A stretch of 64,000 nucleotides of DNA from an uncultured Gammaproteobacteria bacterium (GTDB taxonomy: Bacteria; Patescibacteriota; Microgenomatia; Levybacterales; UBA12049). Every line of letters begins with the position of its first letter. Positions within the stretch are counted from its first letter, which is position 1. The position numbers and the translations under genes are program-made. Below, in pieces: positions 553 to 64,000 of this stretch. Under the pieces are notes generated by a model. It did not search any database and was not told the DNA's origin. It saw nothing but the letters and a program-made list of their open reading frames with translations. The DNA lies in assembly GCA_964537895.1 (NCBI GenBank), contig CAZIDK010000002.1:82684-146683 (forward strand). The letters are read 5' to 3'.

Positions 553-625
553 GGCGCCATCGTCTAGCGGTTAGGACACAGGGTTTTCATCCCTGTAATC
601 GTGGGTTCGAATCCCACTGGCGTCA
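553..625 (+). tRNA. tRNA-Glu (anticodon TTC)
   Basis: Cloverleaf is readable: 7 bp acceptor GGCGCCA/TGGCGTC, anticodon stem CAGGG/CCCTG, loop TTTTCAT, T-arm GGGTTCGAATCCC. CCA is not encoded. Confidence 0.85.
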
Positions 626-663
626 CTGAAACCTAATTTGACTTCTTAGCCACAATAACTCCC

Positions 664-4087: not shown

Positions 4088-4127
4088 AAAATAAGTTAAT
4101 TGTTTTTGCTGTACAATATACACCTAC

Positions 4128-5291
4128 ATGAAGCTTCCTATTAAGTATATAGCCATAATAGCTTCTTTTTTAATATTAAATTTCTTATTCATAAAAAACT
4201 CATATGCAGTTTACGACCCAACATCCAAAACCAACAATATTGTGGGAATTCACATTTTATTTCCCAGCGAACTGGCAGAAGCTGCAAAATTAGTTAATTC
4301 TACGGGCGGAGATTGGGGCTACGTTACAATTCCAATTCAGGCATCAGACAAAGACTTAGTAAAATGGCAGGGTTTTATGGATGATAGCCGAAAATTTCAC
4401 TTAATTCCCATTATAAGACTTGCTACTAGCGGAGATTATTTTAACACTGTATCTTGGTCTAAGCCTACGGATAGTGATGTTTTAGATTTTGCCAATTTTT
4501 TAAACGCTCTTAATTGGCCTACCAAAAATAGGTATGTTGTGATTTATAACGAACCAAACAGGGGTGATGAATGGGGCGGAGCTCCCGATCCTGCGGGGTA
4601 CGCGGAAATATTAAGTTATGCCGCTGACGTTTTTAAGCAAAGAAGCGATGAGTTTTTTATTATTTCCGCAGGACTTGATAATGCGTCGGCTAATATTGCG
4701 GGACAATCGATAAACGAATACTCTTTTATAAGACAAGTGAATAACGCAGTGCCCGGAGTGTTTGGGAAAATTGACGGCCTGGCCAGTCATTCGTATCCAA
4801 ATCCCGGGTTTTCAGAGCCTCCTTCGGCATACGGATATCAAGGAATAGCCAGCTTTAAGTACGAACAGAGTCTGGTGCAAAGCTTGGAAGGCAAACTTCT
4901 GCCGGTTTTTATTACGGAAACGGGGTGGACGGATACTCAAATTCCGGAATCTGTTCAATCGGAATACTACAGGAGCGCATTTACCTCGATTTGGAACGAC
5001 AAAAATGTTATTGCGGTTACTCCTTTTTTGCTTCGGGCAGGAACGGGTCCTTTCGCCCAATTTTCTTTTATCAAAGACGAGCAGGAAAAACGAAATAAGT
5101 ATAAAACGCTACAAAATTTGCAAAAAAACAAAGGAGAGCCGGTACTAAACGAATACTCATTAACCAAGGGTTCGAACGCTGTAGAAAACGACTTTCCATT
5201 AGACAGGTTTACCAAAAGTATAAAGCAGAATTACACGGCGACTGTTTCAAAGGCAGCAAAAAATTTTATGAAATGGCTTCTAAACATTTAG
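4128..5291 (+). CDS. Secreted glycoside hydrolase, clan GH-A-like (TIM-barrel retaining glycosidase)
   Basis: N-terminal signal or TM anchor. Has an acid/base-type NEP motif (VVIYNEPNRGDEWGG) and a nucleophile-type TE-G motif (VFITETGWTD) at the expected spacing. Confidence 0.45.
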   Translation: MKLPIKYIAIIASFLILNFLFIKNSYAVYDPTSKTNNIVGIHILFPSELAEAAKLVNSTGGDWGYVTIPIQASDKDLVKWQGFMDDSRKFHLIPIIRLATSGDYFNTVSWSKPTDSDVLDFANFLNALNWPTKNRYVVIYNEPNRGDEWGGAPDPAGYAEILSYAADVFKQRSDEFFIISAGLDNASANIAGQSINEYSFIRQVNNAVPGVFGKIDGLASHSYPNPGFSEPPSAYGYQGIASFKYEQSLVQSLEGKLLPVFITETGWTDTQIPESVQSEYYRSAFTSIWNDKNVIAVTPFLLRAGTGPFAQFSFIKDEQEKRNKYKTLQNLQKNKGEPVLNEYSLTKGSNAVENDFPLDRFTKSIKQNYTATVSKAAKNFMKWLLNI

Positions 5292-5956: not shown

Positions 5957-6349
5957 ATGAAGAGTCAAAAACTGGAATGGGAAGAAGCAAACGAAGTTAA
6001 AAAAGATATTGAAAATATAGTTACCGTCTTAGGTTTTTCTCATATAAATTCTGCTAGAATCTTTTGCTACAGAACAAACGGTTCAAAATCAAGATCATAC
6101 GCCAGAATTTGGGCATTTCCTAAAATTTTTCAAACGGCTTTAAAAACAGAACCGGCTTATGTAATTGAAGTTTTGGCTAAATATTTTGATAAACTGGACA
6201 CTGATAAACAAAAACAAGTTTTAATTCATGAACTATTGCATATTCCCAAGAATTTTTCAGGTGCTCTGCTTCCCCATAGAGGCAGAAATAGGCATTTAGA
6301 GAAAAATGCTTCGCAGCTATTCAAAGATTACAAAAAATTAGCAAAATAA
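5957..6349 (+). CDS. Small HExxH metallohydrolase-like protein (possibly YgjP/DUF45-like)
   Basis: Motif VLIHELLHIP with a downstream His (LLPHRG). Confidence 0.35.
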   Translation: MKSQKLEWEEANEVKKDIENIVTVLGFSHINSARIFCYRTNGSKSRSYARIWAFPKIFQTALKTEPAYVIEVLAKYFDKLDTDKQKQVLIHELLHIPKNFSGALLPHRGRNRHLEKNASQLFKDYKKLAK

Positions 6350-9526: not shown

Positions 9527-11800
9527 ATGACTGCCAAATCGAGGTTTGTTGCGTGGTTTTCCGAAGTGGATAAAGAGGACGTAGCGTTAGTCGGAGGGAA
9601 AGGTGCAAATTTAGGTGAAATGACAAAAGCTAAATTTCCAGTCCCCAACGGTTTTATTATAACATCCGAGGCTTACTACGCTTTTATAAGAGAAAACAAT
9701 TTCTCTGTAAAAATAAAGCACCTTTTAGAGACTGCAAATTTTGATAAACCCGATTCCTTATCGCAGGTTTCAACGCATATAAAAAAACTGATAATTGATG
9801 GTAAATTATCAAAGGAATTGGTCGGAGACGTTTTTAGAGCTTACAGTAAGCTTGGGACAGTTTTTGACGACACCCTCGTCGCGGTAAGATCTTCAGCAAC
9901 TGCCGAGGACCTTGCTAATGCCTCATTTGCCGGACAGCAGGAAACATTTTTGAATGTTAAAGGCGAAGCGGTGCTTTTGGAAAAAATTAAAGAAGGCTGG
10001 GCTTCGCTTTTTAATGCCCGGGCACTTTTTTACAGGCACGAGCAGCATTTTGACAATTTAAAAATTGGAATTGCGCTGGTTGTACAGAGAATGGTTGAAT
10101 CTGAAAAATCAGGAATAATGTTTACACTGGATCCTGTTACAAATGATAAATCAAAAATTGTAATTGAGGCAATTTACGGATTAGGGGAATTAATTGTGCA
10201 GGGGCAAGAAAATCCCGACCACTATGAAGTGTTAAAAAACGACTTTTCGATTATTTCTAAAAAAGCGGTATTGCAGAAAAAAATGCTTAAAAAAGTTGGT
10301 GCTAAAAATAAAGAGATTAAACTTACTAAATCCCAAGGCGGACACCAAAAATTGTCGGACAAAGAAATTATCGGATTGGCAAAGTTAGGCGAAAGATTGG
10401 AAAAACATTATTATTTTCCCCAAGATATTGAATGGGCAATTGAAAAAAATAAACTTTTTATTGTTCAAACAAGAGCAGTTACAACCGTAAATGAAAAAAA
10501 GCAAACAAAAAAAGCTATTGATGAAATCGCCAACACATCAAGAATACCGATATTAAAAGGCGATCCGGCAAGTCCGGGAATAGCCGCAGGTCCTGTCAGA
10601 ATTATTAAAAGTGCTAAGGAAATAGGCAAAGTAATGCCCGGAGAAGTTTTAGTTGCGCCTCAAACAAATCCTGATTATGTTCCGGCGATGAAAAAGGCCG
10701 TTGCCATTGTTACGGATAGCGGGGGAAGAACTTCACACGCGGCAATAGTCTCAAGGGAACTCGGAATTCCGGCAATTGTCGGTACCCAAAAGGCAACAAA
10801 AATTTTAAAACAAGGAGAGGTAGTAACCGTAAACGGCACAAAAGGCGAGATTTATAAAGGCGGACACTTAACTTCAAATGTAAACATAAACACAATTAAT
10901 CCCGAAGATTTTATAAAAACCGCTACTAAAGTTTACGTAAACTTGGCGGAACCGGAACTTGCGGAAAAAATCGCACAGCAAAATGTAGACGGAGTAGGAC
11001 TTTTAAGAGCCGAGTTTATGATGGCCGGTATTGGAATTCATCCTAAAAAATTGATCAGGGAGGGAAAAAAACAGCTATTTATCGAAAAACTAGCTAACGA
11101 CTTGGAAATGTTTTGCAAGCCTTTTAACCCGAGGCCGGTTGTTTATAGAGCCTCCGACTTTAAAACAAATGAATACAGATCGCTGATTGGAGGTAGGGAC
11201 TTCGAGCCCGAAGAACCAAATCCGATGCTAGGCTATAGGGGTGTATACCGGTATATTCATGATCCGGAAGTTTTTGAACTGGAGCTTGAAGCGATTAAAA
11301 TTGTCAGGAATAAAAAAGGATACAGAAATTTATGGCTGATGCTTCCTTTTGTAAGAACGGTCAAGGAACTTGAGGAAGTTAAGAAGATTATCAATATTTC
11401 CGGATTGCAGCGTTCCCCTACTTTTAAACTCTGGATGATGGTAGAAATTCCTTCTAACGTGATACTGCTTGAAGATTTCATTAAAGCGGGCATTGACGGA
11501 GTTTCAATCGGCTCTAATGATTTGACAATGCTGCTTTTAGGAACAGACCGGGATAACAGCGAAGTCGCATCGGAATTTAGCGAACTTAATCCTGCTGTGA
11601 TGTGGGCTTTTGAGCGCGTTATAAAAACTGCCCGCAAAACCGGAATTACCGCTTCTATTTGCGGGCAGGCAGTGTCAACATACCCTTTGCTTGTTGAAAA
11701 ATTAGTTTCTTGGGGAGTGACAAGTGTATCCATATCTCCGGACGCAGCCGACAGTACGAGAAAATTAATTTCCGAAACTGAGAAAAAAGTGATAAATTAA
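9527..11800 (+). CDS. ppsA: Phosphoenolpyruvate synthase (pyruvate, water dikinase)
   Basis: N-terminal ATP-grasp motif GGKGANLGEM, phosphohistidine domain GGRTSHAAIVSRELGIPAIVG, and a C-terminal PEP-utilising TIM barrel. 757 aa. Confidence 0.8.
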   Translation: MTAKSRFVAWFSEVDKEDVALVGGKGANLGEMTKAKFPVPNGFIITSEAYYAFIRENNFSVKIKHLLETANFDKPDSLSQVSTHIKKLIIDGKLSKELVGDVFRAYSKLGTVFDDTLVAVRSSATAEDLANASFAGQQETFLNVKGEAVLLEKIKEGWASLFNARALFYRHEQHFDNLKIGIALVVQRMVESEKSGIMFTLDPVTNDKSKIVIEAIYGLGELIVQGQENPDHYEVLKNDFSIISKKAVLQKKMLKKVGAKNKEIKLTKSQGGHQKLSDKEIIGLAKLGERLEKHYYFPQDIEWAIEKNKLFIVQTRAVTTVNEKKQTKKAIDEIANTSRIPILKGDPASPGIAAGPVRIIKSAKEIGKVMPGEVLVAPQTNPDYVPAMKKAVAIVTDSGGRTSHAAIVSRELGIPAIVGTQKATKILKQGEVVTVNGTKGEIYKGGHLTSNVNINTINPEDFIKTATKVYVNLAEPELAEKIAQQNVDGVGLLRAEFMMAGIGIHPKKLIREGKKQLFIEKLANDLEMFCKPFNPRPVVYRASDFKTNEYRSLIGGRDFEPEEPNPMLGYRGVYRYIHDPEVFELELEAIKIVRNKKGYRNLWLMLPFVRTVKELEEVKKIINISGLQRSPTFKLWMMVEIPSNVILLEDFIKAGIDGVSIGSNDLTMLLLGTDRDNSEVASEFSELNPAVMWAFERVIKTARKTGITASICGQAVSTYPLLVEKLVSWGVTSVSISPDAADSTRKLISETEKKVIN

Positions 11801-24661: not shown

Positions 24662-24728
24662 CATCCTGAGCTTATCGCACATTCGACATAGCTCAGTGCG
24701 ATACTGAGTTTAGCGAATGTATCGAAGG
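24662..24728. repeat. Nested-hairpin repeat element, copy 1 (REP/MITE-like or small structured RNA)
   Basis: cctgagcttatcgcACATTCGacatagCTCAGTgcgatACTGAGtttagCGAATGTatcgaagg. A central perfect 6 bp hairpin sits inside a 7 bp outer stem. The reverse complement of 35461-35530 matches it at about 85% identity. Confidence 0.6.
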
Positions 24729-24737
24729 ATAAATAAT

Positions 24738-26018
24738 ATGATCAATGTCTTGATAATTCTAATCGGAAAGGTTCTCTCTTTTTTGAGTAAAAATTTAAAC
24801 TTGGGACATGGATCAACTTGGCCGGGACATATTGCCCTAAAGATAAATAAAAATTTTATAAAGCAAACAATTGGGTCAAAAACCAAAGTCGTTCTCGTAG
24901 CAGGAACAAATGGAAAAACTACCACTTCTGCTCTTACTTGTCACATTCTTAAACAGAATGGATTTTCGGTAGTTCAAAATAAAAGCGGTGCTAACCTACT
25001 TAACGGAGCGGCATCAGCTATTATTCAAGGAATTAGACCATTTTCATCAAAGACTGACCAAGACTATTTGATTTTGGAAGTTGATGAAAACAATCTGCCT
25101 CTTGTTATAAACCAAACAAATCCATCCTATATCATTGCATTAGACTTGTTCCGTGATCAACTCGATAGATATGGTGAGGTTTATTCAATTATTAATAAAT
25201 GGAAAAATGCTTTTGAAAAACTTAGTAACAATAGTACGTTAATTCTAAATGCCGATGATCCTCAGGTTTCTTACCTTGGTAAAAATCTGAAATCAAAGGT
25301 AATATACTTTGGACTTAATGAAAATGATCAAGAAATAATTGAACACGGAGCAGATTCTATTTTCTGTCCAAAATGTCAACATCTGCTGGATTATAAATCT
25401 ATTACTTTTTCCCATCTTGGGAATTGGTTTTGCTCAAACTGCAATGAAAAAAGACCATCTCTAAATATTTCAAAATTTGAGATTTATCCCATTCCCGGCA
25501 CTTATAATAAGTATAATACTCTAGCTGCAATTTTATTAACAACTGATCAAGGATTATCTGGCAAGCAAATAACTGAAGCATTTAAATCCTTCAAGCCTGC
25601 TTTCGGAAGACAGGAAGAGTTCGAGGTTAATGGTAAAAAAACAAAAATATTTTTATCAAAAAATCCTACTAGCTTTAATGAGTCGCTATCAACTATTTCA
25701 GACCTAAACGCTAAAAATTTATTAATCGTTCTTAACGACAGAGTTCCTGATGGATTGGATATATCATGGATATGGGATACAAACACATCTCTTTTAGGAA
25801 ATATTTCAAACATTACAGTTTCCGGTGATAGGGCCTACGACATGGCTTTGAGAATCAAGTATTCCGGGCTTAAAAATTTCCATATTTTTGAAGATCTTTC
25901 AGATGCGATAAAACAATCTTTAGAGAAAACAAAATTCGGCGAAACACTATTTATTCTTCCTACATATTCCGCAATGCTTGAAACAAGAAAAATATTAACC
26001 GGCAAAAAAATATTATGA
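24738..26018 (+). CDS. murT: MurT-like lipid II isoglutamine synthetase, ligase subunit (Mur ligase domain, Cys4 ribbon, DUF1727)
   Basis: VVLVAGTNGKTTTSAL P-loop, the Cys4 ribbon CPKCQ...CSNC, and the C-terminal DUF1727-like region. Start taken at MINVL (SD aagga 7 nt upstream); the longer ORF would overlap the repeat element. Confidence 0.6.
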   Translation: MINVLIILIGKVLSFLSKNLNLGHGSTWPGHIALKINKNFIKQTIGSKTKVVLVAGTNGKTTTSALTCHILKQNGFSVVQNKSGANLLNGAASAIIQGIRPFSSKTDQDYLILEVDENNLPLVINQTNPSYIIALDLFRDQLDRYGEVYSIINKWKNAFEKLSNNSTLILNADDPQVSYLGKNLKSKVIYFGLNENDQEIIEHGADSIFCPKCQHLLDYKSITFSHLGNWFCSNCNEKRPSLNISKFEIYPIPGTYNKYNTLAAILLTTDQGLSGKQITEAFKSFKPAFGRQEEFEVNGKKTKIFLSKNPTSFNESLSTISDLNAKNLLIVLNDRVPDGLDISWIWDTNTSLLGNISNITVSGDRAYDMALRIKYSGLKNFHIFEDLSDAIKQSLEKTKFGETLFILPTYSAMLETRKILTGKKIL

Positions 26019-34958: not shown

Positions 34959-35456
34959 ATGGAAATATTTACAAAATTTGGGTTTGATCCCGTTATGCTC
35001 GGTGCTCAAATCATAAATTTTCTAATCATTTTTTATATACTAAAAAGGTTTTTATATAAACCTATCCTTGAAATGCTTAAAAAACGCAAGGATGCCATTG
35101 AAAAGGGAGTAAAAGATGCGGAGGAAGGCAGGCTAACATTAGAAAAGGCGCTGGAAGAAGAAAAAAAGATTTTAAGAAAAGCGCAGGAACAATCAAAAAA
35201 AATTATTGATGACGCCGCGAGTCAAGCCATTCTAATAGCAAACGATATTGGGCAAAATTCAAGAAAACAAGCGGAAAAAATACTTGATGATGCAAAAACT
35301 CAAATCCAGCAAGAAACAAAAGAAGCGGAAAAAAGATTATCACAAGATGTTAGTAAATTATCCATTGAGTTTCTTAGTACATCCTTAAAGGAAATTTTTG
35401 GAGAAAAAGAAGAAAAATTAATAATAAAAAAGACATTAAAACAACTAAAAAAATAG
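34959..35456 (+). CDS. atpF: F0F1 ATP synthase subunit b
   Basis: Single N-terminal TM helix followed by a long charged helix. Confidence 0.75.
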   Translation: MEIFTKFGFDPVMLGAQIINFLIIFYILKRFLYKPILEMLKKRKDAIEKGVKDAEEGRLTLEKALEEEKKILRKAQEQSKKIIDDAASQAILIANDIGQNSRKQAEKILDDAKTQIQQETKEAEKRLSQDVSKLSIEFLSTSLKEIFGEKEEKLIIKKTLKQLKK

Positions 35457-35460
35457 TATG

Positions 35461-35530
35461 ACCCATTCGATACGTTCGATAAACTCAGTATCGCACTGAG
35501 CAAAATCGAATGTGCGACGTTGTTCAGGGT
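35461..35530. repeat. Nested-hairpin repeat element, copy 2, in inverted orientation relative to copy 1
   Basis: Reverse complement reads gaccctgaacaacgtcgcACATTCGattttgCTCAGTgcgatACTGAGtttatCGAACGTatcgaatgggt. The central 17 nt is identical to copy 1, and the outer stem is kept by a G-U-compatible change. Confidence 0.6.
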
Positions 35531-35551
35531 CATAATGAGTAAAATCGAATT

Positions 35552-35917
35552 ATGACAAAAAAATATATTAAAAAAATAGCCTTGGCAAGTTATGCAAAAA
35601 ATGAATTGGATTCTAAAAAAGTTAGAAAAATCGCCGGCTTTTTAACACGAAATAATCTTAAACAATACATAAAAGAATTAAAATTGTTGGAAAGTCAAAA
35701 AACTATTACAATTTTAACGCCGTCATTTAGCAAAACAACGCAAAATGATATAAAAAAACAATTTGCTAAAGTTTTCGTTGGTAAAAAGATTATAATAGAT
35801 AGTGATCCGTCTTTAATTCTTGGCGTAAAAGTAATAAATAACGATTTAATTTATAACTTGAGTTTAAAAAATACACTTGATAATCTAAATATGCATATAA
35901 ATGAACAGTATGATTGA
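35552..35917 (+). CDS. atpH: F0F1 ATP synthase subunit delta (short form)
   Basis: The C-terminal block DSDPSLILGVKVINNDLIYNLSLKNTL matches the OSCP/delta signature. Confidence 0.65.
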   Translation: MTKKYIKKIALASYAKNELDSKKVRKIAGFLTRNNLKQYIKELKLLESQKTITILTPSFSKTTQNDIKKQFAKVFVGKKIIIDSDPSLILGVKVINNDLIYNLSLKNTLDNLNMHINEQYD

Positions 35918-40280: not shown

Positions 40281-40322
40281 CTGCCGGAGTAACTCAGGGA
40301 ACGGAGCAAAGCGAGTTCGCCT
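40281..40322 (+). pseudogene. tRNA 5'-half-like fragment 1
   Basis: gccggagtaactcagggaacggagcaaagcgagttcgcctgc, a degenerate acceptor and D-arm. Shares its start (gccgnagtaactcag) and its end (ttcgcctgc) with fragment 2. Confidence 0.4.
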
Positions 40323-40440
40323 GCTTGATCGCGTCAGACGCGACTTGACAGACGCGACGAGCAAGTGTTTCGTCCCAGCATTTTCTTGCAAATTTTGATA
40401 AAATTTGCTTAGAAATGCGGGATCCCGTAAATCTAAGCTT

Positions 40441-40479
40441 GCCGAAGTAACTCAGCGGTAGAGTAGCTCTTTCGCCTGC
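40441..40479 (+). pseudogene. tRNA 5'-half-like fragment 2
   Basis: gccgaag-ta-actc-agcggta-gagt-a-gctct-ttcgcct aligns position by position with nt 1-37 of the adjacent tRNA-Thr and breaks off after the anticodon-loop position. Confidence 0.5.
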
Positions 40480-40487
40480 CCGCCATC

Positions 40488-40559
40488 GCCAACATAGCTC
40501 AGTGGCAGAGCAGCTGTTTCGTAAACAGCAGGTCGTTGGTTCGATCCCAACTGTTGGCT
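40488..40559 (+). tRNA. tRNA-Thr (anticodon CGT)
   Basis: GCCAACA/TGTTGGC acceptor, D-stem GCTC/GAGC, anticodon stem GCTGT/ACAGC with loop TTCGTAA, T-arm GTTGG-TTCGATC-CCAAC. Confidence 0.8.
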
Positions 40560-40582
40560 CAGGCAAGCAAGATTTACTGGGA

Positions 40583-40621
40583 TAAACAGCAGGTCCTCGG
40601 TTCAATCCCGAGAGACGGCTC
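40583..40621 (+). pseudogene. tRNA 3'-half-like fragment 1
   Basis: aacagcaggtc matches tRNA-Thr from position 38 on. The T-arm CTCGG-TTCAATC-CCGAG has compensatory changes. Preceded by gatttactgggata. Confidence 0.5.
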
Positions 40622-40647
40622 AATAAACGGCTGAATTTACCGGGATA

Positions 40648-40686
40648 AACACTAGGTCGCAGGTTCGATTCCCGCCATCGGCTCTG
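40648..40686 (+). pseudogene. tRNA 3'-half-like fragment 2
   Basis: aacactaggtc, then T-arm GCAGG-TTCGATT-CCCGC and an acceptor-like 3' end catcggctc. Preceded by gaatttaccgggata. Confidence 0.45.
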
Positions 40687-62991: not shown

Positions 62992-64000
62992 TTAAATAAT
63001 TTGAACTCTTGAGTTAATAATACTAATGTAATCTTCTTTTAGTTTTTCCTTTATTTCATCTATTTTATAATATTTCTGAGCCATTTCCTTTTGTCTTTTT
63101 AAGTTAAACTCCCCATTCTTATTTATGGGGATTTCCATATATATTTCGCTCATTCTCTCTATGCCTAATCTTTTATTTGCTCCTTCACCAAGAGTTCTGC
63201 TTGGTAATACCTGTCCTAAAATAAAACACGAATATTCAAAGTCGATTTTACCTTTATACATTTGCCGTAATTCTAAAATCCCTGCGTGTGTAGTAATTGA
63301 AAATTTTCCATTTCTATAAAAGACTGTTCCTGCATGAACACCATCAGTCGTCCAACTTAGACATTCTTTTTCATAATCGAAAGTATCAATTTTTCCAATC
63401 TCGCCAAAATTAACAGTTTGAGATGAATATAGTGGATATTCTCCTTTGTGTTCATGTATATACTTTTTTGTGTAAGTTGAGTTTCCTTTTTTAGGGGAAA
63501 ATATCCTAGTTACTGGAACTAGTTTTGTTTCATACTTGCTACTTATGTCAACTCTTGATTTGATTAAACTATTGAAAACACTACTAAGCTCAAGCTTTAA
63601 GTTTTGGATTTCAAGATATTTTTTAGCAAGCTCTCTCTGTTTTTTCAGATCAAATGCGCCATTATTGTTAACTGGAATTAAAATTTGTACATCTTTTATT
63701 TTATCAACACCACATTTGTGAAGGTATGAAAAACCACATAAAAATAATTGCCTCTCAATTTCAAATTTAAGGTATAACTTATCCAATTTATCATAATACT
63801 TCTGTTTTATTATTAACGCCCTATGATCTTCATTGGTAGTGAATTTGTGGTCTCTTATAAAGACGTACCCAACTGAACCGTTCCTGTTCCAGCTTAAACA
63901 GTTCTCATAGTATTTAACTCCTTTTAGGTTGTTTTGTATAAATCCAAGTGTAGATTTTTCATCTCTTGATGATGCATAAACAGGAATAGATCCCTTATTT
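62992..64000 (-). CDS. hsdS: Type I restriction-modification specificity subunit (HsdS)-like, with the N-terminal part (on the minus strand) beyond the window
   Basis: The frame stays open from the TTG at 63786 to position 64000. Two similar target-recognition-type blocks (IPVYASS...ENCLSWNRNGSVGYVFIRDHKF and YPLYSSQ...KECLSWTTDGVHAGTVFYRNGKF) are each followed by a conserved helical spacer (LAKKYLEIQNLKLEL and MAQKYYKIDEIKEKL). Confidence 0.55.
   Translation of the reverse strand, partial: NKGSIPVYASSRDEKSTLGFIQNNLKGVKYYENCLSWNRNGSVGYVFIRDHKFTTNEDHRALIIKQKYYDKLDKLYLKFEIERQLFLCGFSYLHKCGVDKIKDVQILIPVNNNGAFDLKKQRELAKKYLEIQNLKLELSSVFNSLIKSRVDISSKYETKLVPVTRIFSPKKGNSTYTKKYIHEHKGEYPLYSSQTVNFGEIGKIDTFDYEKECLSWTTDGVHAGTVFYRNGKFSITTHAGILELRQMYKGKIDFEYSCFILGQVLPSRTLGEGANKRLGIERMSEIYMEIPINKNGEFNLKRQKEMAQKYYKIDEIKEKLKEDYISIINSRVQII

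What the first reader, a model, noticed from the sequence alone, without database searches (positions are those of the whole stretch)
24662..24728. Nested-hairpin repeat element after htpX (copy 1 of 2)
A roughly 68 bp element has a perfect central hairpin CTCAGT-gcgat-ACTGAG inside a second stem ACATTCG/CGAATGT, with conserved flanks cctga(g/a)c and tatcgaa(t/g)gg. It recurs as a reverse complement at 35461-35530, with the central 17 nt identical and about 85% identity overall. Both copies are intergenic and sit immediately 3' of a gene (htpX and atpF). Copy 1 overlaps the longest possible murT start. The architecture resembles REP/MITE-like elements or a small structured RNA or protein-binding site. 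The single substitution in the outer stem of copy 2 (T to C) still allows G-U pairing on one strand, which hints at RNA-level selection.
Basis: seen in the sequence. Interest (0 to 1): 0.6.

Follow-up and report, generated by a model that had tools for sequence, protein, structure and literature searches.

The report
Tiny hairpin transposon with target-matching loop
The two "nested-hairpin repeats" are copies of a tiny, non-coding mobile DNA element of Levybacteria that inserts at gene junctions, and its hairpin loop is complementary to the short sequence it inserts at, which suggests the element carries its own target address.

Summary
Both copies exist as described, and the shared 17-mer occurs twice against 0.03 expected.

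It is a mobile element, not a regulatory RNA. Five relatives have atpF and atpH 1 nt apart. The window has 95 extra bases there: an 88-bp element plus a duplicated TATGAC that holds the atpH start codon. Two further filled/empty pairs were found elsewhere. More than 30 copies occur in Levybacteria and other Patescibacteria assemblies. There is no match in Rfam, phage or plasmid collections.

Anatomy:
- The basic unit is about 37-44 bp: arms TTCGAY-N3-5-CTCAG and CTGAG-N3-5-TCGAA around a 6-12 nt loop.
- Copy 1 is an older copy that lacks its left arm. Copy 2 is complete and lies in the opposite orientation.

The unexpected result is that the reverse complement of each loop equals right-end nucleotides + flanking direct repeat + left-end nucleotides. 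Loops with different centres sit at different repeats (ATGA/TCAT, TTAA, TTTTTGT, TATCG). Flank shuffles never reach the observed match (0 of 2000).

I read this as target choice by base pairing with the loop, similar in principle to IS200/IS605. The enzyme is unknown.

The parts
35457..35462 (+). Copy 2, left direct repeat TATGAC, immediately after the atpF stop codon TAG (35454-35456).
   Evidence: Relatives have the sequence once (L148: taa|TATGAC|aaaa). The window has it on both sides of the insert.
35463..35550 (-). Copy 2, the complete 88-bp element: outer unit E1 with inner unit E2 nested in its right arm. On the canonical (-) strand it reads A.TTCGAT-TTTA-CTCA[TTATGACCC]TGAA-CAACG-TCGCAC-ATTCGA-TTTTG-CTCAG-TGCGATA-CTGAG-TTTA-TCGAACGT-ATCGAAT-GG.
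   Evidence: Absent from the atpF|atpH junction of L144-L148. nhmmer hit 35454-35556, E 3e-26. Coordinates.
35551..35556 (+). Copy 2, right direct repeat TATGAC. It contains the atpH start codon (35552-35554).
   Evidence: AtpH homologues start at this ATG.
35523..35539 (-). Copy 2, E1 hairpin tip. On the + strand it reads TTCA-GGGTCATAA-TGAG. On that strand the loop pairs with the left junction TATGAC.CC and the right junction T.TATGAC.
   Evidence: Loop rule. Coordinates.
35473..35514 (-). Copy 2, inner unit E2.
24663..24671 (+). Copy 1, remnant of the E1 tip: the loop 3' part ATCC followed by the right stem arm CTGAGC. The E1 left arm (TTCGAT..CTCA) is missing.
   Evidence: Alignment with full-length copies. 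Orthologous junctions.
24678..24719 (+). Copy 1, inner unit E2: CAC.ATTCGA-CATAG-CTCAG-TGCGATA-CTGAG-TTTAG-CGAAT.G. It is flanked by TATCG at 24673-24677 and 24720-24724. The reverse complement of the loop GTGCGATAC is G.TATCG.CAC.
24721..24730 (+).
24738..24740 (+). Real murT start codon, 8 nt after the element. The ATG at 24717 inside the element is not the start.
   Evidence: Relatives have htpX stop - 1 nt - ATG (L150, L151). The gene call on the identical contigs L153/L154 starts here.

Best explanation
The two repeats are copies of a non-coding, palindromic mobile DNA element found in Levybacteria (candidate phyla radiation).

Structure. The basic unit is about 37-44 bp. It has two inverted arms, TTCGAY-N3-5-CTCAG and CTGAG-N3-5-RTCGAA, around a 6-12 nt loop. 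The composite moves by E1's ends.

Insertion. It inserts with a short direct repeat of 2-7 bp, most often ATGA/TCAT. These are stop/start overlaps and start codons, so both neighbouring reading frames survive.

The loop rule. The E1 loop is the reverse complement of [last nucleotides of the right end][direct repeat][first nucleotides of the left end].

Proposed mechanism. I propose that this loop, exposed as single-stranded DNA, selects both the element's own cleavage junctions and the target tetranucleotide by base pairing. IS200/IS605 transposases use an internal guide in the same way. The enzyme would act in trans and has not been identified.

What is shown: mobility, the direct repeat, the loop rule, and that loop type is inherited and goes with target type. 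What is inferred: that pairing is the mechanism, that the intermediate is single-stranded, and what kind of enzyme is involved.
For: Mobility:
- Five relatives have atpF stop - 1 nt - atpH ATG. The window has 95 extra bases flanked by TATGAC.
- The 20-kb syntenic loci of relatives hold no copy.
- L110 has an extra single unit with repeat GTCATA that the orthologous L052 lacks.
- L128 compared with L158, with all flanking bases compared identical, shows a 44-bp unit plus a TTAA repeat. It adds 16 in-frame residues that are absent from 10 homologues.
- More than 30 distinct copies exist, all but one of those examined intergenic, with ends that abut ORF ends.

Loop rule:
- In 16 copies from different loci, the longest exact match between the reverse-complemented loop and each flank averages 6.5 nt (left) and 6.75 nt (right). 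Nine chance pattern matches give 3.7 and 3.1.
- The summed score is 212, against 111 +/- 5 for shuffled flanks (maximum 129; 0 of 2000 reach it).
- A copy's own loop scores 13.25. The loop of a copy from a different repeat class scores 6.1.
- In the formal alignment, 6 of 7 loop-to-3'-flank pairs change on both sides.

Loop centre tracks the repeat:
- GGG.TCAT.AC goes with ATGA; GGG.TTAA.TAC with TTAA; CACAAAAATAC with TTTTTGT; E2's GTGCGATAC with TATCG.

The pairing is inherited:
- Non-orthologous insertions with the same loop share the same repeat: window copy 2 and the L052/L110 locus with GTCATA; L005 and L049 with TTTTTGT; two different junctions on L109.
- One contig can carry two loop types, each at its own repeat type (L128, L080).

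No time for compensatory evolution:
- The L128 insertion has identical flanks in the empty allele, yet its loop matches the junction 10 of 10.

Other:
- In single units the minimum-energy DNA fold is the loop-flank hairpin of 8-9 bp.
- Principle: in IS608 the cleavage sites and the target tetranucleotide are read by base pairing with short internal guide sequences (abstracts of PMC3201880 and PMC5934647).
Against: - No transposase was identified. None appears among 20 window ORFs scanned in Pfam. No ORF family recurs next to copies except through synteny. tblastn with E. coli RayT finds nothing in the 1.07 Mb held.
- The guide sits in the hairpin loop and spans up to 9-11 nt. In IS608 it is a tetranucleotide at the 5' foot of a subterminal hairpin.
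- Only the central 2-7 nt match the target. The outer loop nucleotides match the element's own ends.
- The rule holds equally on both strands, so the active strand cannot be told.
- The direction of causation, loop to target or target to loop, is not proven by comparison alone.
- Some copies (the L025/L065/L068/L121 group, and the middle module of L097) do not fit the simple rule.
- Copy number in this genome is low: 2 copies in about 82 kb.
Confidence: 0.6

Rival explanations
1. The target writes the loop, rather than the loop choosing the target. In this model the element passes through a small single-stranded circle (a dumbbell). Its two loops are the joined ends plus repeat, and the old hairpin tip. 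The circle can be opened at either loop, so each round of transposition copies flank-derived sequence into what becomes the next hairpin tip. Target preference itself would come from the enzyme.
For: The circle sequence would have two-fold pseudo-symmetry, and the A and B subfamilies are one E1 read on its two strands, with S_B equal to the reverse complement of S_A. This looks like flip-flop. The loop-to-junction match is perfect even in the youngest copy. Repeat length varies from 2 to 7 bp, which fits a shared core better than a fixed staggered cut.
Against: Independent insertions share the same loop, the same end nucleotides and the same repeat, so the loop is inherited. Rare repeats (TTTTTGT twice, at L005 and L049) would have to be hit twice by chance. 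No known enzyme does this.
Confidence: 0.2
2. It is a conventional MITE moved by a transposase that recognises the arms and prefers TCAT-like sites. The loop-flank complementarity would then be an RNA-level adaptation: an anti-start-codon loop, or a fold that brings the upstream stop codon next to the downstream start so that translational coupling survives the insertion.
For: Most copies sit exactly on start codons or ATGA stop/start overlaps. The repeat recreates both the stop and the start. The L008/L109 subfamily carries GGAG about 10 nt before the restored ATG. In window copy 2 the duplicated ATG opens a 13-codon decoy frame.
Against: The repeat changes with the loop (TTAA, TTTTTGT, TATCG, AT), which a protein-fixed target cannot explain. 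The rule also holds for a unit inside a coding sequence and for the fossil E2 nested inside E1, where no start codon is involved. The L128 copy is too young for 10 compensatory changes. Stem mismatches show no bias towards the mRNA strand.
Confidence: 0.12
3. It is a functional structured RNA: a small RNA, a riboswitch-like leader, or a 3' terminator or stabiliser. In this reading it is conserved because of its fold.
For: Both strands fold better than shuffles. The outer stem covaries.
Against: The two window copies lie in opposite orientation within same-strand operons. The element is present or absent among close relatives. No Rfam family matches at E up to 10. There is no T-run terminator and no promoter. 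The inner stems are invariant in sequence rather than covarying. The covarying outer stem is explained by the direct-repeat rule.
Confidence: 0.04
4. It is a chance duplicated fragment with no wider family.
For: Only two copies occur in the 64-kb window and in 18 kb more of the same genome.
Against: The 17-mer is expected 0.03 times. More than 30 copies with conserved flanks occur in other assemblies.
Confidence: 0.01

Closest known systems
Miniature inverted-repeat transposable elements (MITEs)
   Same: Small and non-coding. Has terminal inverted repeats (the two arms) and a flanking direct repeat. Copies are dispersed, and close relatives differ in presence or absence.
   Different: It is far smaller (37-44 bp per unit). 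The repeat length varies from 2 to 7 bp instead of being fixed. The sequence between the inverted repeats is complementary to the junctions. No parent insertion sequence is known.
REP / REPIN elements and their RAYT (TnpA-REP) transposases (PMC3333891, PMC8266576, PMC3479197)
   Same: Hairpin-sized palindromes lying between genes, in either orientation, thought to be moved in trans by a single enzyme. The nested double form recalls REP pairs.
   Different: It has no conserved 5' GTAG. Copy number is low here (2 in about 82 kb). No RAYT gene was found in the sequence held. REPs are not reported (to my knowledge) to have a loop that matches their flanks.
IS200/IS605 family, e.g. IS608 (PMC3201880, PMC3597680, PMC5934647)
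   Same: The proposed principle is the same: cleavage sites and a roughly 4-nt target are read by base pairing with a guide inside the element, near a DNA hairpin, on single-stranded DNA. The small repeat seen here could be the target on the left and an identical element end on the right.
   Different: IS608 has two subterminal hairpins and two different tetranucleotide guides at the hairpin feet, and it has no inverted repeats and no direct repeat. Here there is one hairpin, the guide is its loop, it spans up to 9-11 nt, and the same guide would serve both ends. No TnpA was identified.
IS110 bridge RNA (PMC11208160, PMC11208158)
   Same: The logic is similar: loops of a folded nucleic acid encoded by the element are complementary to the element's joined ends and to the target, and they share a core. 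This was also discovered through covariation between loops and flanks.
   Different: A bridge RNA is about 150-250 nt, with two internal loops that each carry two guides, and it is encoded beside a recombinase gene. Here there is one hairpin loop in a 44-bp element with no gene, and there is no evidence that RNA is the active form.
Rickettsia palindromic elements (own knowledge: Ogata et al. 2000; mentioned in PMC1458961)
   Same: Palindromic repeats in a small-genome bacterium that can sit in frame inside protein-coding genes. The L128 thermonuclease copy adds 16 residues in this way.
   Different: Those elements are 100-150 bp and unrelated in sequence, and no loop-flank rule is known for them. 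Most copies here are at gene junctions, not inside genes.

Membership tests
MITE | Short, with no coding capacity | tested here: met
   37-44 bp for single units and 88 bp for the window copy. There is no ORF of its own.
MITE | Terminal inverted repeats | tested here: met
   The arms TTCGAY-N3-5-CTCAG and CTGAG-N3-5-RTCGAA. Window copy 2 ends with ATTCGAT...ATCGAAT.
MITE | Target-site duplication of fixed length | tested here: inconclusive
   A direct repeat is present in all three filled/empty pairs (TATGAC, GTCATA, TTAA). Across copies its length varies from 2 to 7 bp.
MITE | Presence/absence polymorphism and multiple dispersed copies | tested here: met
MITE | A related autonomous element with the same ends | tested here: not met
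   None was found in the loci held. Whole genomes could not be searched.
REP / RAYT system | Conserved GTAG tetranucleotide at the 5' foot of the hairpin | tested here: not met
   The alignments show no conserved GTAG.
REP / RAYT system | High copy number (hundreds per genome) | tested here: not met
   2 copies in about 82 kb of this genome and 0 in about 100 kb of relatives.
REP / RAYT system | A RAYT gene in the genome, flanked by REPs | tested here: inconclusive
   tblastn with E. coli RayT finds nothing below E 0.18 in 1.07 Mb of fragments. Complete genomes were not available.
IS200/IS605-derived element | Subterminal imperfect hairpins at both ends on one strand; no inverted repeats, no duplication | tested here: not met
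   Each unit has a single central hairpin, arms that are inverted repeats, and a direct repeat.
IS200/IS605-derived element | Cleavage site and target complementary to an internal guide | tested here: met
   The loop is complementary to both junctions and to the target core. The geometry differs from IS608.
IS200/IS605-derived element | A Y1 HUH transposase acting on single-stranded DNA | not testable with these tools
   This needs whole-genome gene content or biochemistry.
IS110 bridge-RNA system | A non-coding RNA of about 150-250 nt with two internal loops, next to a DEDD/serine recombinase gene | tested here: not met
   The element is 44-88 bp with hairpin loops and no adjacent gene. The only recombinase seen is a large serine recombinase about 26 kb away, in L159.
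Intrinsic terminator | A G+C-rich hairpin followed by a T run | tested here: not met
   0 sites at either copy. Copy 2 lies inside the atp operon.
Any Rfam RNA family | A covariance-model match | tested here: not met
   Nothing at the gathering threshold. At E up to 10 there is only noise of 7.6-18.4 bits.

The most novel reading that the evidence does not exclude
This would be a self-addressed transposon of about 44 bp, the smallest programmable mobile element known. It would move as a single-stranded hairpin or dumbbell. The hairpin loop would base-pair with the element's own junctions for excision and with a 4-7 nt target for insertion. Mutating the loop centre would then retarget the element, as the natural pairs TCAT to ATGA, TTAA to TTAA and CACAAAAATAC to TTTTTGT suggest. 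The family would have specialised on ATGA stop/start overlaps as safe harbours in very compact genomes.
Probability: 0.4. Interest if true: 0.85.

Novelty: new variant of a known kind. Interest (0 to 1): 0.7.

Why it matters
How REP-sized and MITE-sized palindromes spread and choose their sites is still poorly understood. Guide-based target choice is known only for elements that carry their own enzyme gene (IS200/IS605, IS110, group II introns, CRISPR-associated transposons).

Here the smallest possible element appears to carry its address in a hairpin loop. Natural variants show the address and the target changing together. That makes the question directly testable: change the loop and see where the element lands. 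It also points to an unidentified enzyme in candidate-phyla-radiation bacteria that could be useful for engineering.

The work also shows how a parasite can live in a genome with almost no intergenic space. It lands on overlapping stop/start codons and rebuilds both.

For annotation, it explains a spurious long murT start and a 95-nt gap inside the atp operon.

Tried and rejected
- Rfam, at gathering and at permissive thresholds: no family matched.
- tRNA or tmRNA at the sites: none.
- Terminator and promoter scans at both copies: nothing above the shuffle expectation.
- Viral contigs: three chance matches to the 17-mer with no conserved flanks.
- Plasmid and phage collections: no blastn match.
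- The genome-collection hits in Vibrio, Perlucidibaca, Mariniblastus, Francisella and others share only the 17-mer or a little more. They do not obey the arm or loop rules, so I treated them as chance.
- Further copies in the window, sought with a profile and with a structural pattern: none beyond the two. None in 18 kb more of the same genome.
- A recurrent neighbouring gene that could be a transposase: the only recurrences are syntenic orthologues.
- Pfam on 20 window ORFs: no transposase.
- tblastn with E. coli RayT against everything held: nothing.
- Literature search for MITEs in the candidate phyla radiation: nothing relevant.

Ideas considered and dropped:
- An intron. Splicing at the arm ends would not restore the empty-site sequence.
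- An integron attC site. There are no GTTRRRY / RYYYAAC boxes.
- A pseudoknotted ribozyme. The TCGCAC::GTGCGA pairing is invariant, and it is explained as E2's own junction rule.
- A simple inversion between the A and B subfamilies. Writing out the product does not give the observed arrangement.

Full report
**1. The observation**

The 17-mer CTCAGTGCGATACTGAG lies at 24692-24708 on the + strand and at 35484-35500 on the - strand. It occurs twice, against 0.03 expected, and no shuffle gave two matches. The pair 24675-24739 / 35453-35517 is the longest inverted repeat in the window, at 65 nt and 83% complementary. Either strand of either copy folds better than shuffled sequence, with z of -2.5 to -4.3. 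All genes from 21 to 40 kb are on the + strand, so the two copies are transcribed in opposite senses.

**2. A family, not a pair**

- No Rfam family matches, either at the gathering score or at E up to 10.
- A scan of one genome per species for the 17-mer gave 23 loci. Seven of these share the whole element. They come from Levybacteria/Patescibacteria assemblies, apart from L001, which is labelled Gammaproteobacteria but is near-identical to the Levyibacteriota locus L019. L022 is the orthologous htpX locus.
- A profile built from 32 copies finds 37 strong hits, and only two of them are in the window.
- The profile also matches each element on its opposite strand (E down to 1e-9). The element is therefore a quasi-palindrome.
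- The window's HtpX is 100% identical to a protein on an NCBI contig of 183 kb. The named proteins among the listed hits are mostly from Levybacteria.

**3. It is an insertion**

The atpF-atpH junction. AtpH homologues of 75-85% identity were traced to their contigs. In all five loci atpF ends one base before the atpH ATG. L148, for example, reads aaaaaTAA|TATGAC|aaaaaag. The window reads aaaaaTAG|TATGAC|CCATTCGAT...ATCGAAT|TATGAC|aaaaaaa. That is 88 bp of element plus a second TATGAC, which carries the atpH start codon. The 20-kb syntenic loci of these relatives contain no copy.

The htpX-murT junction. L150 and L151 have stop - 1 nt - ATG. L152 has a 15-nt spacer, cGCAAAGCATCgatt. The window and L022 carry the element right after GCAAAGCATC.

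Copy 1 is therefore an older insertion, shared with the L022 lineage. It lacks the left arm that full-length copies have. The murT start is the ATG at 24738, not the one at 24717.

**4. Anatomy**

Full-length copies extend about 30 nt further 5' than the finding states. Short single units also exist:

| Locus | Coordinates |
|---|---|
| L098 | 1201-1235 |
| L128 | 540-576 |
| L080 | 10666-10698 |
| L109 | 4110-4146 |
| L110 | 436-472 |
| L097 | 1718-1754 |

. The unit has this form:

x.TTCGAY-N3-5-CTCAG-[loop]-CTGAG-N3-5-RTCGAA.y

It is flanked by a direct repeat, which I call the core. The reverse complement of the loop, counting one stem base on each side, reads y.core.x.

The window form is a nest of two units. 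It sits in the right arm (T|ATCGAA) of an outer unit, E1. E2 obeys the same rule: the reverse complement of GTGCGATAC is G.TATCG.CAC, its left junction is TATCG.CAC, and its right junction is G.TATCG.

The two subfamilies I first called A and B are E1 read on its two strands.

**5. The loop rule is statistically solid and inherited**

Statistics on 16 copies from different loci:

| Measure | Value |
|---|---|
| Longest exact match, reverse-complemented loop vs left flank | mean 6.5 nt |
| Same, vs right flank | mean 6.75 nt |
| Same measures in nine chance pattern matches | 3.7 and 3.1 nt |
| Summed score | 212 |
| Summed score with shuffled flanks | 111 +/- 5, maximum 129, 0 of 2000 reach 212 |
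| Score with a copy's own loop | 13.25 |
| Score with the loop of another core class | 6.1 |

. On a formal alignment of 29 copies, 6 of the 7 loop-to-3'-flank pairs change on both sides. The inner stems and the TCGCAC::GTGCGA pairing never vary.

The one to three end nucleotides x covary with the loop in five variants: AC/GT, GC/GC, GG/CC, A/T and C/G.

The loop centre tracks the core:

| Loop | Core |
|---|---|
| GGG.TCAT.AC | ATGA |
| GGG.TTAA.TAC | TTAA |
| CACAAAAATAC | TTTTTGT |
| GTGCGATAC (E2) | TATCG |

Flank comparisons show which sites are independent. Non-orthologous insertions with the same loop share the same core: window copy 2 and the L052/L110 locus with GTCATA, L005 and L049 with TTTTTGT, and the two junctions on L109. 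Single contigs carry two loop types, each at its own core (L128, L080).

**6. The cleanest case**

L128 compared with L158 gives the clearest result. All flanking bases compared (about 50 on each side) are identical.

- The empty allele reads cagcctaatgTTAAatatcaag.
- The filled allele reads ...TTAA CCC.ATTCGAC.AAG.CTCAG.GGTTAATAC.TGAG.CAAAG.CCGAA.GTA TTAA....

The reverse complement of the loop is GTA.TTAA.CCC, which matches 10 of 10 positions. The 48 added bases lie in frame inside the SNase domain of a thermonuclease gene. The 16 extra residues are missing from ten homologues, including one that is 90% identical. There has been no time for compensatory evolution, so the match existed at insertion.

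**7. Where it lands**

Most copies sit on start codons or on ATGA stop/start overlaps, and the repeat recreates both the stop and the start. The orthologous junction ..GGTGTTGGnnG ATGA Annaaag.. is occupied in L001/L019 and in L008. The elements there have opposite internal orientation and different x, y and loop. This means recurrent, independent insertion at one ATGA. L110 has two elements side by side at one start codon.

**8. Mechanism**

The following are shown:
- The element is mobile DNA.
- It has a short repeat of variable length.
- Its loop is complementary to both junctions.
- Loop type is inherited and goes with target type.

Only the core of the loop matches the naive target. The outer loop bases match the element's own ends. 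This is the pattern expected if the loop pairs with the left junction (target core + x) and the right junction (y + core) for cleavage, and with the bare core of a new site for insertion. IS608 reads its cleavage sites and its TTAC target in this way, with internal guides (PMC3201880, PMC5934647). In that reading the right-hand 'repeat' is simply the end of the element.

In single units the minimum-energy single-stranded DNA fold is the loop-flank hairpin.

I put about 0.95 on 'mobile palindromic element', about 0.6 on 'the loop specifies the target by pairing', and about 0.3 on a single-strand HUH-type enzyme.

The main rival is that flank sequence is copied into the loop through a small circular intermediate that can open at either loop. 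That model would also explain the flip between the two strand forms. A purely RNA-level explanation, such as sequestering the start codon or rescuing translational coupling, cannot explain the non-ATG cores, the coding-sequence copy or the young L128 copy.

**9. The RNA hint does not hold**

On the mRNA strand the mismatch is A.C in L001, L047, L049, L008 and L109, and is G.U only in window copy 2. Neither copy has a terminator or a promoter.

**10. What is missing**

The enzyme has not been found.
- No transposase appears among 20 window ORFs.
- None recurs next to copies.
- There is no RayT-like match in 1.07 Mb of held sequence.
- A large serine recombinase lies upstream of the window, but nothing links it to the element.
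- There is no match in phage, plasmid or viral collections.

Copy number in this genome is low: 2 copies in about 82 kb.

**Verdict**

The finding is real. It is a mobile element, and it carries an unexpected, well-supported regularity that points to guide-like target choice in an element of only about 44 bp.

Noticed in passing
window 40283-40685: tRNA-Thr(CGT) at 40488-40560 is surrounded by tRNA-half-like pieces. Two look like 5' halves (about 40283-40320 and 40443-40478). Two are direct repeats of the 3' half (40583-40622 and 40646-40685, 73-80% identical to the tRNA's own 3' half, spaced 61-63 nt). Relatives have only about 140 nt between atpC and the next gene. These could be leftovers of integrations at the tRNA, or split or degenerate tRNA genes.
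   Followed up: partly
L128 529-587 (compared with L158 around 1805): A single 44-bp unit plus a TTAA repeat lies in frame inside the SNase domain of a thermonuclease gene. It adds 16 residues (NPFDKLRVNTEQSRSI) that ten homologues lack. This resembles Rickettsia palindromic elements.
   Followed up: yes
window 35458-35499: In copy 2 the duplicated atpH ATG, directly after the atpF stop, opens a 13-codon frame (MTHSIRSINSVSH) that runs through the inner hairpin and stops at a TGA in its stem. The real atpH ATG follows 52 nt later with no obvious Shine-Dalgarno sequence. This may matter for translational coupling in the atp operon.
   Followed up: no
L008 3690-3930; L109 3640-3880: One subfamily carries an extra hairpin (CCGTGAGCTCAGGACCnAACGG) and a GGAG Shine-Dalgarno-like motif about 10 nt before the ATG that the insertion restores. 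The element seems to supply a ribosome-binding site to the downstream gene.
   Followed up: partly
L097 1718-1860; L110 326-472: These are tandem arrays. L097 has three modules in a row at the start codon of a minus-strand gene. L110 has a single unit inserted next to a double one at the same GTCATA site, and the orthologous L052 lacks it.
   Followed up: partly
L159 4908-8716 (about 1.3-5 kb upstream of the window's left end, same genome): A 520-residue large serine recombinase (Resolvase, Recombinase, Zn_ribbon_recom) follows five small ORFs with no Pfam hit, close to tRNA-Glu (window 553-626). The window also has a PhageMetallopep gene at 5957-6349. This is possibly an integrated element or prophage remnant.
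   Followed up: no
window 62992-63786 and L160 5972-9209: A type I restriction-modification specificity subunit (Methylase_S) lies at the right edge of the window, with an N6_Mtase gene just beyond it.
   Followed up: no
L048 639-660: One copy ends directly against a sequence that looks like the 5' end of a tRNA gene (GGGCCCCGTAGTTCAACGGA...), so tRNA gene borders are also used as insertion sites.
   Followed up: no
L010 7101-7129 (Vibrio scophthalmi): A 27-nt stretch, TTCGACATTGCTCAGTGCGATACTGAG, matches the inner unit's left arm plus hairpin beyond the 17-mer used for the search. There is no right arm and no junction rule. I treated it as chance, but it is more than the query demanded.
   Followed up: partly
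L025, L065, L068, L121 (5' parts): A group of copies has a different 5' module. The first hairpin loop (AGCCGAATGG) has the same sense as the 3' arm CGAATGG and is not complementary to the flank. There are also extra CTCAG/CTGAG hairpins upstream. These copies do not fit the simple loop rule.
   Followed up: no
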